Source: Oculina patagonica (lineage: Eukaryota). From it: a DNA stretch of 64,000 bases. The stretch spans positions 31,372,001-31,436,000 of the forward strand of contig NC_135763.1 in the NCBI RefSeq assembly GCF_052425735.1, given 5' to 3'. Position 1 is the first letter of the stretch. Each line of letters begins with the position of its first letter. The notes under the pieces are model-generated. The model worked only from the letters and a program-made list of their open reading frames with translations. It made no database searches and was not told where the DNA came from. Position numbers and translations under genes: made by a program. Positions 16,801-19,800 of this stretch are shown here, in pieces.

Positions 16801-19800
16801 GACTTACATGTACATGTAAGTGGACTGTATCCTAATCATGTACATTTTGTGCAAGGAAGGGAAAAGGGGATATTATTCAACAACTAATTTATGTAAATTA
16901 ATATTGATGCCTTTTGTTTTTCTCAGGCTGTGACATTCATTTTCAAGAGTTTAGGAATGAAATGTGTGACATACCTCTCTCAGGTATTAAATTTTCAGCA
17001 GAATTTTGTTCAAGAATACCCAGTTTTAGGGAGGAACAAGTAAACAAAAAATGATTACATGTATTAAAATTTGCTGCCAAGATGTATAACGCCATAGAGA
17101 TACATGTATTTCACAGGGTTACCACAGATCAGAAAATGGTCAGGAAAAAAAAAATTCTTGAAGGTCGGGTAATTTTATTTTGAATCAGGGAAATTGAGAC
17201 ATTGAAGGAAAGTCAGGGAAAATTAAACTCATGACACGTCCGACTTAACAGAAAAAATGTAATCTCAGTGATGTTTTTCTTTTGGAAGTGAAGGCCAGAG
17301 GCCGCAACTTTATCTGACATTTTGTATTTATTTGTTAAGGGGAACTTGATATTTATTAGGGAAAAGTCGTGAAAAAGTCAGGGAATTTTAAAAATCAGTG
17401 TCTGTCACAACGATGTTTCGAGTACAAATTGTCATCAAGTAAGATAAGTTGATACATTACCATGGGGTTGATTATAGTACATTATTATCCTGATTGTTTT
17501 TATTTATCTTTCAGATCATGCCTTCATTTATGAATGTCATTAGAACTTGTGATTCTTCATTTAGAGAGGTATTGGCAATTTACTCTACTGTCAGTAGCTT
17601 CAAAAAATTAAATTGCCTAGATGTAAACTTTTTGCATGTAGCATTAATTTTTGTTATGAAATCTAGAAATCAGTAATCTACTTTTTCATTCTTTTAATTT
17701 GTAGTTTGTACTTCAACAACTTGGCGTACTGATATCTATTGTCAAGCAACATATCAGGAACTACTTGGATGAAATTTTTGGCCTGATTAAGGTTTGTTCG
17801 TATAGTTAGTTTATTGTTGTTTACAACTGGCTTTGTTTTGGGCACTGGTGGCGTGTATCCTTGCAAGCAAAACCAGCATGAACGACTTGCTCTTACATGT
17901 AATAACTTGCCACAGAATATTGGCATTTCTACTAACTATGCTACAGGTAGCATATATATCAGATTACAACGTATTAACGTACCTGTGTGCAACAGTAAAA
18001 TATAATTATATACTTCAGATCACTGTAAGTTATGTGGTTACATTACATGTTGAGATTCAATTTTTCACTTGCTACAATCTGGTATTTTCCTCTGTTCAAT
18101 TTTCATTGCCATATTTAACCATAAACCAGAACGAAGGTAAATACCAAATTATACCAAGGGCGGTTTATAATAAAACGAACTACAACAGTTACAGTTTTTT
18201 TGTATGTTTATGAAACATCATTGACGAGGTTTTTTCCCCAATCTTTCTGTTTCCAGCAATACTGGATTCTTAACAGTCCGATGCAGACAACTATTATTCT
18301 GTTAGTGGAGCAGATAGTTACAGCTTTAGGAGGAGAATTCAAGGTAAACTGTCCACACGTCTAGCGATGTAACAGTCAAGTCAATTTGATCGCATTAATT
18401 ACAGTTATACATAACAGTAATAACGATAGTGACTCTTGTAAATATGATTGTTTTGATGATAACTATGTGCTGTTTTGACTTGCTGTAGATCTACCTGCCT
18501 CAAATCATACCTCAGATACTCAAGGTGTTCATGCACGACAACAGCGCACAAAGGAGTGTCACAACAAAGGTCAGTCAGCACCAGCCCCTATGTACTCCTT
18601 TGTTAAGTGTTCAAACTTCCATAATCCAATTGGAAAGTCGCACCTTGCAAACCACGAAAATTACATCTATTTTACTGATGCGCGAAAAGACTCCAGTGAT
18701 TTTTGTCAGCTTCAGAGGCGCAATAGCAATAACAGTCATGTCTACTATTCTAGCCGTTTTGTAAGGTTGCAATAACTAGTTTGAAATACTGTAAGTATTC
18801 GTCGGCTATTTTAAAATTATCCTGCGAAGTCGTGCGGTATGTTGCCTGATACTTAGCCGATGATACGATATTTCGGAAGAATAAGCAAGATAATTATTCA
18901 AGAAACTGTCAACGAAAATTACCTTACATCTAAAACAATTGCAGTGAAGAAATTATTCAACATGACACGAGCGTGGGACAAAGAAAAAATCTGAGTCCCC
19001 GACGGGAATCGAACTCATGGCCTCCCAGATACCGGTTGGGCGCTCTAACCAACTGAGCTAAGAGAGACTCCTTGTGAGCTGGGCCATTTACTAGGTTGAT
19101 ATATGACACCCGTCCTGCATACAGCTAGGATCAGCAATGTCGAAATCATCAAATGTGTAGTAAATAATAAAGATGGTAAATTTCAAGCTCGGTGATAAAT
19201 AGTGAAGAAATTATTCAACATGACACGAGCGTGGGACAAAGAAAAAATCTGAGTCCCCGACGGGAATCGAACCCATGGCCTCCCAGATACCGGTTGGGCG
19301 CTCTAACCAACTGAGCTACGAGAGACTCGTTGTGAGCTGGGCCATTTACTAGGTTGATATACTGTATGACACGCGTCCTGCATACAGCTAGGATCAGCAA
19401 TGTCAAATGTGTAGTAAATAATAAAGATGGTAAATTTCAAGCTCACTATTTCAAGCTCACTATTTATCACCGAGCTTGAAATTTACCATCTTTATTATTT
19501 ACTAAAACAATTGTAGTTATGTTTTGCAAGACTTCGAACGAATCTGGCAACCTACCTTTATGGCAGGATATCTATTATGTATGAATGACGGATAACAATC
19601 ACGGACCATATGTGGGCTTTGCGACAATTGAATACTTTATTTTCTTTATTTCACAGTTGTTGAATGCTCTTCAAATGTTTGGCTCCAGCCTGGACGATTA
19701 CCTTCATCTTCTAGTGCCACCTGTAGTGAAACTCTTTGACTCATCTGATATCCCACTCACTGTCAGAAAGTTAGTGAAATACTTTTTTTTTACAGTTTAA

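What the first reader, a model, noticed from the sequence alone, without database searches (positions are those of the whole stretch)
18930..19513. tRNA-mimic mobile element with Penelope-like tandem + inverted architecture
Seen: two head-to-tail ~258-bp units, then a reverse-complement fragment of the unit end, all flanked by a 12-bp direct repeat. Each unit carries an internal full cloverleaf on the minus strand with A and B boxes, a T6 run right after it, an over-long acceptor stem and a CCGGTAT loop. Established: ordinary SINEs begin with the tRNA part and lose its 3' structure. Partial tandem plus inverted ends typify Penelope-like elements, whose multimers are normally cut by hammerhead ribozymes. 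I found no CTGANGA...GAAA core here. Inference: a non-autonomous retroelement whose multimeric or circular RNA may be processed by RNase P/Z at a tRNA mimic instead of a ribozyme, or transcribed by Pol III from it.
Basis: partly seen in the sequence, partly recalled or inferred. Interest (0 to 1): 0.72.

Follow-up and report, generated by a model that had tools for sequence, protein, structure and literature searches.

The report
tRNA-mimic parasite of Penelope retroelements
This is one copy of an abundant 258-base non-coding coral repeat whose insertions bear the marks of Penelope-like jumping genes but which carries a tRNA look-alike instead of the usual self-cutting ribozyme, and two neighbouring copies are predicted to fold into one intron-containing tRNA precursor, so the host's tRNA-splicing enzymes would cut out and close the RNA ring that likely gets copied.

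Summary
Observation confirmed (target duplication is 13 bp, 18931-18943/19503-19515). The unit is a young, high-copy family in a coral genome, here in an mTOR intron. Insertions end at two fixed points 42 nt apart; 35 of 35 inverted insertions with both ends fixed use one of each; duplications are mostly 10-14 bp: the Penelope 'tail' signature. A sister family shares its end block with an autonomous RT+GIY-YIG element, its tRNA mimic sitting where that element has its hammerhead. Not a SINE: 5' breakpoints ignore the tRNA start. Folding predicts instead a composite pre-tRNA (5' half of unit n, 3' half of unit n+1) with a unit-length intron and a bulge-helix-bulge-like motif in 6 of 7 families: a likely TSEN/RtcB route to a monomer circle. 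One insertion with identical A-to-G edits in both units supports a re-read monomer; variant sharing in longer arrays is mostly discordant. No RNA ends could be tested. The scan noted similar ribozyme-free elements in other animal genomes.

The parts
18931..18943 (.). left target-site duplication, 13 bp
   Evidence: one mismatch to the right copy
19503..19515 (.). right target-site duplication, 13 bp
18944..19200 (-). unit 1 (first-copied unit of the long arm); its left end is fixed end E1, an inferred reverse-transcription start
   Evidence: E1 window holds 80 of 180 outer 3' ends
19201..19444 (-). unit 2, cut short at unit position ~248; shares one private change with unit 1
19434..19461 (.). 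14-nt duplication at the inversion junction (inferred template-switch scar)
19457..19502 (+). inverted short arm carrying the 42-nt 'tail'; its right end is fixed end E2
   Evidence: E2 window holds 69 of 180 outer 3' ends
19160..19201 (-). tail segment between E1 and E2 inside the tandem junction
19251..19328 (-). tRNA mimic of unit 2 with extended acceptor stem; A box 19307-19318, B box 19263-19273
   Evidence: covariation
18993..19070 (-). tRNA mimic of unit 1 (carries post-insertion changes in acceptor and T stems)
19286..19294 (-). positions 31-39 of unit 2: mismatched 31.39, self-complementary core 19290-19293; predicted 37/38 cut between 19288 and 19287
   Evidence: cut site inferred
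19028..19036 (-). positions 31-39 of unit 1; predicted partner of the unit-2 loop in the bulge-helix-bulge-like motif
   Evidence: paired in both MFE and centroid of the real two-unit stretch
19233..19247 (-). T6 run (19242-19247) and the downstream arm (19233-19241) that pairs back on the 3' acceptor strand; same at 18975-18989 in unit 1
19329..19337 (-). leader predicted to pair with the D loop and D stem in read-through RNA; same at 19071-19079 in unit 1
   Evidence: p=0.014
19657..19770 (+). host context: mTOR exon just downstream; the element lies antisense in the preceding intron
   Evidence: E=6e-11 to mTOR; upstream exon near 18488-18572 resembles mTOR by eye only

Best explanation
This is a non-coding tandem retroelement whose insertions end at two fixed points 42 nt apart and that is likely copied by the RT and GIY-YIG nuclease of an autonomous Penelope-like element, and its tRNA mimic is predicted to let host tRNA-splicing enzymes, in place of a ribozyme, cut out and ligate a unit-length RNA ring that would serve as template. 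Steps: (1, inferred) Pol III starts at the mimic of unit n, sometimes reads through the first T run and stops at the next. (2, predicted by folding) In that RNA the trailer hairpin captures the 3' acceptor strand of unit n and the leader captures the D arm of unit n+1, so the one complete tRNA body is 5' half n plus 3' half n+1, with exactly one unit as an intron at the anticodon; the two self-complementary loops form the central helix, with C32 paired to the G three bases before the 3' cut and a 3-nt bulge on each strand. (3, untested) TSEN cuts both strands symmetrically and RtcB closes the intron, as for tricRNAs. (4, predicted) In the ring the cloverleaf is unfolded and so hidden from RNase P and Z. 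(5, shown at DNA level, enzyme inferred) A staggered 10-14-nt cut primes two cDNAs, one from E1 and one from E2, giving partial tandems and an inverted arm. Linear read-through multimers probably also serve as templates. Confidence by part: Penelope mobilisation about 0.93; selected tRNA fold about 0.85; splicing-made circle about 0.45.
For: Penelope marks: 149 of 180 outer 3' ends fall in two windows covering 10% of the unit; of 56 inverted insertions, the 35 with both ends in these windows all pair E1 with E2; duplication found in 32 of 35, 10-14 bp in 30. Same pattern in sister family H (11 of 12 loci) and in a hammerhead family of this genome (13 of 13); autonomous elements here show 11-14-bp duplications and tails of 21-111 nt. 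Two internal RT starts explain the tail in vitro (PMC11167929). Partner: family H aligns 71% over 98 columns (E=2e-9) with the 3' block of an RT+GIY-YIG family, both ends in register, the mimic lying where that family has its minimal hammerhead. RNA intermediate and strand: A-to-G clusters only on the tRNA-sense strand in two insertions. Re-read monomer: in L119 both units carry the same 18 edits with 0 differences in 249 nt, the haplotype is found only there, its length (508) excludes simple unequal exchange, and an independent edited copy matches only about half the sites. Covariation over 13 families: acceptor, anticodon stem and trailer hairpin p<1e-4, leader p=0.014; 32:35' C-G in 13 of 13, 33:34' C-G 9, U-A 3, U-G 1; the U-A families are not one clade (AU p=1e-5); score 0.412 vs 0.198 shuffled, 0 of 500. 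Unconstrained folding gives the swapped anticodon arm with P 0.50-0.88 in 6 of 7 families and in the real window stretch; non-complementary cores abolish it in 6 of 6. TSEN needs this proximal C-G pair and 3-nt bulge (PMC6614914, section 20).
Against: No RNA end, circle junction or cleavage was observed: only contigs were available. Family H, the youngest and the one with a known partner, does not fold into the composite (P 0.01) with any core. Private variants in arrays with three or more overlapping pieces are mostly not shared by all pieces (family A 2 concordant, 8 discordant; H 1 and 3), so a single monomer is not the only template, or arrays are reshaped after insertion; L119 is one case and gene conversion could mimic it. 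31.39 is mismatched in 13 of 13 families, unlike canonical intron-bearing tRNAs, and the predicted central helix is often 6 bp, while tight helices lower splicing (PMC6614914). Shuffling the trailer barely changed the composite, the natural CUAG and CUGG cores fail in the A1, A2 and D2 backgrounds, and pairing 31:39 did not hurt in 3 of 6. A T6-T7 run inside the would-be intron should stop most Pol III. The cores could be inherited from one tRNA loop by CpG decay or I34 read as G. Permutation tests ignore kinship; 5 of the 13 families are single copies. No autonomous partner was found for family A itself among 140 GIY-YIG-related loci. In the green-anole element cleavage by the hammerhead was not needed for insertion in vitro (PMC11167929).
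Confidence: 0.5

Rival explanations
1. Penelope-mobilised element in which the tRNA mimic is only an internal Pol III promoter (or a La/stability module); uncut read-through multimers are the templates and the self-complementary loop is inherited or serves RNA dimer formation for the two-ended insertion.
For: Perfect A and B boxes and a T run in all families; discordant variant sharing, e.g. L142 where both arms share a change with the first-copied unit only; uncut RNA is the main substrate in vitro for a Penelope element (PMC11167929); Cassandra and Schistosoma Sm-alpha use an upstream unit's Pol III promoter (PMC10886601, PMC6765202, passages).
Against: A promoter does not need a covarying anticodon stem, an invariant C32/G35 or leader and trailer switches; ordinary SINE heads of this genome with the same scaffold have decayed arms and variable, non-self-complementary loops; L119 identical edits.
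Confidence: 0.3
2. One reading: RNase P and/or RNase Z cut the mimic in multimers to release monomers, which are copied directly or ligated.
For: Acceptor and T stems, which these enzymes read (PMC3978253, passages), covary across families.
Against: No excess of 5' breakpoints at the tRNA 5' end (14 of 187 against 13.8 expected) or 3' end (5; largest 5-nt window p=0.70); 34 of 77 arms run past the tRNA start; acceptor pairing 0.00 in all 7 modelled circles and no local acceptor in two-unit RNA; trailer hairpin beats 96% or more of shuffles in 9 of 12 families.
Confidence: 0.08
3. Monomers are made by another nuclease cutting the anticodon loop (or by an unrecognised ribozyme) and are then closed by RtcB.
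For: Would also give unit-length rings and explain a conserved loop; a 14-nt exact match to stem II of a hammerhead family of this genome lies in the family A body.
Against: No Rfam ribozyme, no hammerhead core; the body match is weak (z=2.5, 11 of 500 shuffles, one of 7 families tested) and lacks the catalytic bases; does not explain self-complementarity.
Confidence: 0.1
4. A plain tRNA-derived SINE duplicated locally.
For: tRNA-like part with A and B boxes; a true SINE with the same scaffold exists in the window (25260-25620).
Against: Internal tRNA position, two fixed ends, inverted arms, no poly(A) or repeat tail, 24 of 60 length-unbiased insertions longer than one unit.
Confidence: 0.01

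Closest known systems
Metazoan non-LTR retrozymes (Cervera and de la Pena 2020, PMC7229834; section 13 and passages read; review PMC7761336, passages)
   Same: Small non-coding tandem units (220-240 bp in a coral), low GC, long target duplications, proposed Penelope mobilisation, RtcB-closed monomer rings.
   Different: Defined by a type I hammerhead; none here. The proposed cutter is a host protein acting on a tRNA mimic. Rings are shown for retrozymes, only inferred here.
Penelope-like elements and their non-autonomous derivatives such as MRC1 (Craig 2021, PMC8557442, sections 6 and 15 and passages; Frangieh 2024, PMC11167929, parts 1-2 of 4)
   Same: Partial tandems, inverted 5'-truncated arm, 30-40-bp tail at one end, two internal RT starts, AT-rich targets; family H shares the end block of an autonomous element.
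   Different: No ORF; tRNA mimic at the hammerhead's place. The passages read mention no tRNA-bearing derivative.
Schistosoma Sm-alpha / Sj-alpha (as described in PMC6765202 and PMC2770079, passages; the original paper was not held)
   Same: tRNA-related, Pol III-type, tandem SINE-like units in which the upstream unit transcribes the next.
   Different: They keep a hammerhead for monomer release; no anticodon-arm swap is described in the passages read.
tricRNAs and circularly permuted tRNA genes (PMC6614914, section 20 and passages; PMC4536317, listing only; PMC3978253, passages)
   Same: TSEN cut at a bulge-helix-bulge-like motif with a C-G proximal pair, then ligation to a ring; an artificial tandem tRNA transcript forms a permuted substrate in vitro.
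   Different: Those are host tRNA by-products or intermediates; here the 'intron' would be a whole mobile element and the ring is predicted to stay closed. 31.39 is unpaired.
Pol III TRIMs Cassandra, Helenus, Ajax (PMC10886601, passages)
   Same: Non-autonomous element with an internal small-RNA-derived promoter, transcribed from one repeat into the next.
   Different: LTR-type, with primer-binding site; mobilised by LTR machinery, no inverted arm or tail.

Membership tests
Non-autonomous Penelope-like element | Partial tandems and inverted 5'-truncated arm | tested here: met
   56 of 124 clusters inverted; up to 4.2 units
Non-autonomous Penelope-like element | Tail at one end only (two fixed 3' ends) | tested here: met
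   35 of 35 E1+E2, 42 nt
Non-autonomous Penelope-like element | Target duplication like the genome's autonomous elements | tested here: met
   10-14 bp in 30 of 35 against 11-14 bp
Non-autonomous Penelope-like element | 3' similarity to an autonomous RT+GIY-YIG family | tested here: inconclusive
   Met for sister family H; none found for family A among 140 loci
Non-autonomous Penelope-like element | Mobilised in trans by that protein | not testable with these tools
   needs an in vitro or cell assay
Metazoan non-LTR retrozyme | Type I hammerhead in each unit | tested here: not met
   relic match weak
Metazoan non-LTR retrozyme | Non-coding 150-450-bp tandem unit with long target duplication | tested here: met
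Metazoan non-LTR retrozyme | Abundant monomer circular RNA | tested here: inconclusive
   L119 for, against; contigs cannot show rings
tRNA-derived SINE (SINE2) | Element begins at the tRNA head | tested here: not met
tRNA-derived SINE (SINE2) | Single LINE-type 3' end with A-rich or repeat tail | tested here: not met
   two fixed ends without tail
tRNA-derived SINE (SINE2) | A and B boxes | tested here: met
   activity untested
TSEN substrate (tricRNA precursor) | tRNA body around an intron at 37/38 | tested here: inconclusive
   predicted composite in 6 of 7 families, not H; secondary-structure model only
TSEN substrate (tricRNA precursor) | Proximal C32-G pair and 3-nt bulge at the 3' site | tested here: inconclusive
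   C-G in 13 of 13; 3-nt bulge predicted but shifted by one base when 31:36' pairs; 31.39 mismatched
TSEN substrate (tricRNA precursor) | Cleavage by TSEN and ligation by RtcB | not testable with these tools
   bench test; TSEN and RtcB genes were not searched in this genome
Functional tRNA gene | 7-bp acceptor, 5-bp anticodon stem, U33, a used anticodon | tested here: not met
   C33, mismatched 31.39, bulged long acceptor; GGU anticodon not used by eukaryotes (recalled)

The most novel reading that the evidence does not exclude
A superfamily of coral mobile elements is a self-made tRNA intron: any two adjacent copies assemble a composite pre-tRNA, TSEN and RtcB release one unit as a ring that hides its cloverleaf, and a Penelope enzyme rolls round it. 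The tRNA mimic would be promoter, terminator and ribozyme substitute in one, a transposon life cycle built on host tRNA splicing.
Probability: 0.45. Interest if true: 0.92.

Novelty: new variant of a known kind. Interest (0 to 1): 0.76.

Why it matters
It extends Penelope parasites beyond ribozyme-bearing retrozymes and ties one tRNA-mimic family to a specific autonomous partner by sequence, which the retrozyme papers read here only propose. The strict one-E1-one-E2 rule is a genomic read-out of how both strands are primed. If the splicing model holds, it is a mobile element that recruits TSEN and RtcB to make its circular template, a natural source of abundant tricRNA-like rings in corals, and it can be tested with one 345-nt transcript and recombinant enzymes. 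Such repeats also inflate tRNA gene counts in coral annotations.

Tried and rejected
RNase P/Z monomer ends: no pile-up of breakpoints at the tRNA ends or anywhere; nor at the predicted splice cut (5 of 187), so no sign of linear monomer templates of any kind. Within-family covariation: family A is too young (about 2.6% from consensus, mimic no more conserved than the body). Partner for family A: no 3' match in 50 GIY-YIG loci or in the 140-locus set; the hits there were inserted copies, and one weak antisense match (L418) was not followed. Hammerhead relic in the body: z=2.5, not significant over 7 families. All-monomer template: rejected as exclusive (old array L178 left out; segmental duplicate L170 left out). 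Search for further edited multi-unit copies: 12 matches, one more edited copy, whose units do not overlap the edited stretch. RNA data: 23 runs, all contigs, 3 on record as RNA; four laid; they show presence only. Rfam miRNA hits at 19408-19509 are the inverted arm, far below gathering scores. Single-unit fold is not unusually stable (z=-1.4; two-unit z=-1.2). Rfam did not detect the minimal hammerheads seen by pattern in L398, L420, L066, so alone cannot exclude a minimal one; one search covers that. No complex prediction was run. Repbase and Dfam could not be searched; these families may be listed there as SINE or unknown.

Full report
Observation. The architecture is as described. The element spans 18944-19502 between 13-bp target duplications: one full unit, a second cut at position ~248, a 14-nt junction duplication and a 46-nt inverted arm. 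It lies antisense in an intron of mTOR. The host is a 529-Mb animal genome; runs holding the repeat are labelled coral metagenome. One 27-mer has 374 exact matches; 52 of the first 100 of 3,684 matches to a generic tRNA scaffold belong to this family by my count, which extrapolates to roughly 1,900 units. Full units are about 2.6% from their consensus.

Insertion mechanism. I parsed 125 clusters from 130 loci against a multimer of the unit so that query edges could not create ends (loci came from three searches, two of which need sequence near E1 or the T arm; one segmental duplicate dropped). 149 of 180 outer 3' ends fall in two windows, E1 and E2, 42 nt apart. Of 56 inverted insertions, 35 have both ends in these windows and all 35 pair E1 with E2; the other 21 have one end elsewhere. 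A duplication was found in 32 of the 35, 10-14 bp in 30. This is the tail described for Penelope-like elements (PMC8557442, sections 6 and 15) and traced to two internal RT starts (PMC11167929, parts 1-2 of 4). The genome holds many RT+GIY-YIG elements with 11-14-bp duplications and one-sided tails. The variable ends show no preferred site: 14 of 187 near the tRNA start against 13.8 expected, largest 5-nt window p=0.70, and 34 of 77 arms run past the tRNA start; 24 of 60 length-unbiased insertions exceed one unit. The template is therefore multimeric or circular and the element is not a SINE.

A superfamily and a partner. Pattern searches found further families of 235-262 nt with different bodies and the same mimic. 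Family H is very young, forms arrays of ten or more units and follows the E1+E2 rule in 11 of 12 inverted loci. Its end block aligns at 71% over 98 columns (E=2e-9) with the 3' end of an autonomous family (L066 and kin), both fixed ends in register; H has the mimic and T run where that family has a minimal hammerhead. No partner was found for family A among 140 loci.

The mimic is selected, and it is switched. Over 13 families (8 consensus, 5 single copies) own 5' and 3' strands pair better than cross-family ones for the acceptor, the anticodon stem and a hairpin formed by the 3' acceptor strand with the bases after the T run (each p<1e-4), and more weakly for a leader that pairs with the D arm (p=0.014) (kinship not controlled). 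On 8 real copies 95.7% of cells pair, covariation 0.412 against 0.198 shuffled. Positions 32-35 are CCGG in 9, CUAG in 3 and CUGG in 1 family; all can pair with a second copy of themselves; the CUAG families are not one clade (AU p=1e-5). In the first 100 matches of the D pattern I counted 48 and 31 of the two palindromic states, 9 and 2 of the single-change states and 10 others, and the two states belong to separate subfamilies. SINE heads with the same scaffold have decayed arms. In modelled circles the acceptor has probability 0.00 in 7 of 7 and the D stem at most 0.07. This argues against RNase P/Z, which read the acceptor and T arm (PMC3978253, passages).

Composite pre-tRNA. For RNA running from the mimic of unit n to the T run of unit n+1, unconstrained folding joins the 5' half of n to the 3' half of n+1, with the loops paired into a central helix between two 3-nt bulges: swapped anticodon stem P 0.50-0.88 in 6 of 7 families, 0.01 in H (D1, D2 and J rest on one or two copies). 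The real window stretch shows the swapped arm in MFE and centroid, though its D and T arms mispair. Non-complementary cores abolish the swap in 6 of 6; shuffling the leader lowers it in 5 of 6; shuffling the trailer does little; CUAG and CUGG fail in three foreign backgrounds. Metazoan TSEN needs a strong proximal pair at C32 and a 3-nt bulge, tolerates loose motifs and dislikes tight helices, and RtcB closes the intron (PMC6614914, section 20 and passages). Symmetric cuts would free exactly one unit. This step is a prediction.

Ring or multimer. L119 has two units identical over 249 nt that share 18 A-to-G changes on the tRNA-sense strand, found nowhere else. At 508 nt it cannot come from simple unequal exchange of a shorter insert. 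A second edited copy shares 7 sites and differs at about as many in the same stretch, so identity is unlikely from site preference alone; conversion remains possible. Against an all-monomer model, private changes covered by three or more pieces are shared by all in 2 cases and by some in 8 (family A) and 1 and 3 (H); some are expected by chance or from later array expansion (L299), but L142 and L146 fit mixed templates. RNA contigs show the family in coral libraries and nothing about ends.

Comparison and novelty. It works like a metazoan retrozyme (PMC7229834) but fails membership for lack of a hammerhead; it meets the structural tests of a non-autonomous Penelope-like element; Sm-alpha is the nearest tRNA-bearing tandem element but keeps its ribozyme (PMC6765202, PMC2770079, passages). 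Searches returned no paper describing a ribozyme-free tRNA-mimic Penelope parasite or a TSEN-processed retroelement; the library lacks most subscription papers, Repbase and Dfam, and I read no supplements, where such families may be listed (notably those of PMC8557442 and PMC12070523). Earlier scan notes record similar elements in three other animal genomes; none matched the splicing words. Verdict: new variant of a known kind, with a 0.45 chance of a new processing route; interest 0.76.

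Noticed in passing
window 23945-24235: Decayed inverted insertion of sister family B (about 255-nt unit, same loop, different body) in another mTOR intron.
   Followed up: yes
window 25260-25620: Ordinary tRNA-headed SINE on the minus strand with the same tRNA scaffold, a decayed anticodon arm and a short-repeat tail; served as control.
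   Followed up: partly
window 18488-25730: mTOR exons on the plus strand (19657-19770 confirmed; 24375-24533 and 24805-24940 by eye).
   Followed up: partly
window 1071-5747 (minus): 1,558-aa open frame with a C-terminal cysteine cluster, probably a DNA transposon; not annotated here.
   Followed up: no
window 35765-38935 (minus): 1,056-aa frame with endonuclease- and RT-like motifs, a LINE by eye.
   Followed up: no
window 28531-29214, 51506-52102, 52920-54594: Long inverted-repeat elements (up to 1.7 kb, 75-90% self-complementary).
   Followed up: no
L398:1134-1290 and L431-L460: Abundant minimal-hammerhead family with a 43-nt one-sided tail; its stem II shares 14 exact bases with the family A body (window about 19121-19134 in consensus form), a possible ribozyme relic.
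   Followed up: partly
L274 / L272 (family D1): Copies with G at position 34 in an A34 family, in L274 in both units of one arm but not the other arm; may record I34 editing of the mimic.
   Followed up: partly
L334:1093-1563, L071:3711-3923: Family H inserted into a family A junction and into the tail of an autonomous Penelope-like element.
   Followed up: no
L039-L048, L065: Near-identical 1,336-1,371-aa frames with a polymerase-B-like region and C-terminal GIY-YIG, Polinton-like by eye; observed only.
   Followed up: no
L341-L360, L062-L073: Autonomous Penelope-like families here have tails from 21 to 111 nt, well outside the 30-40 bp usually quoted.
   Followed up: partly
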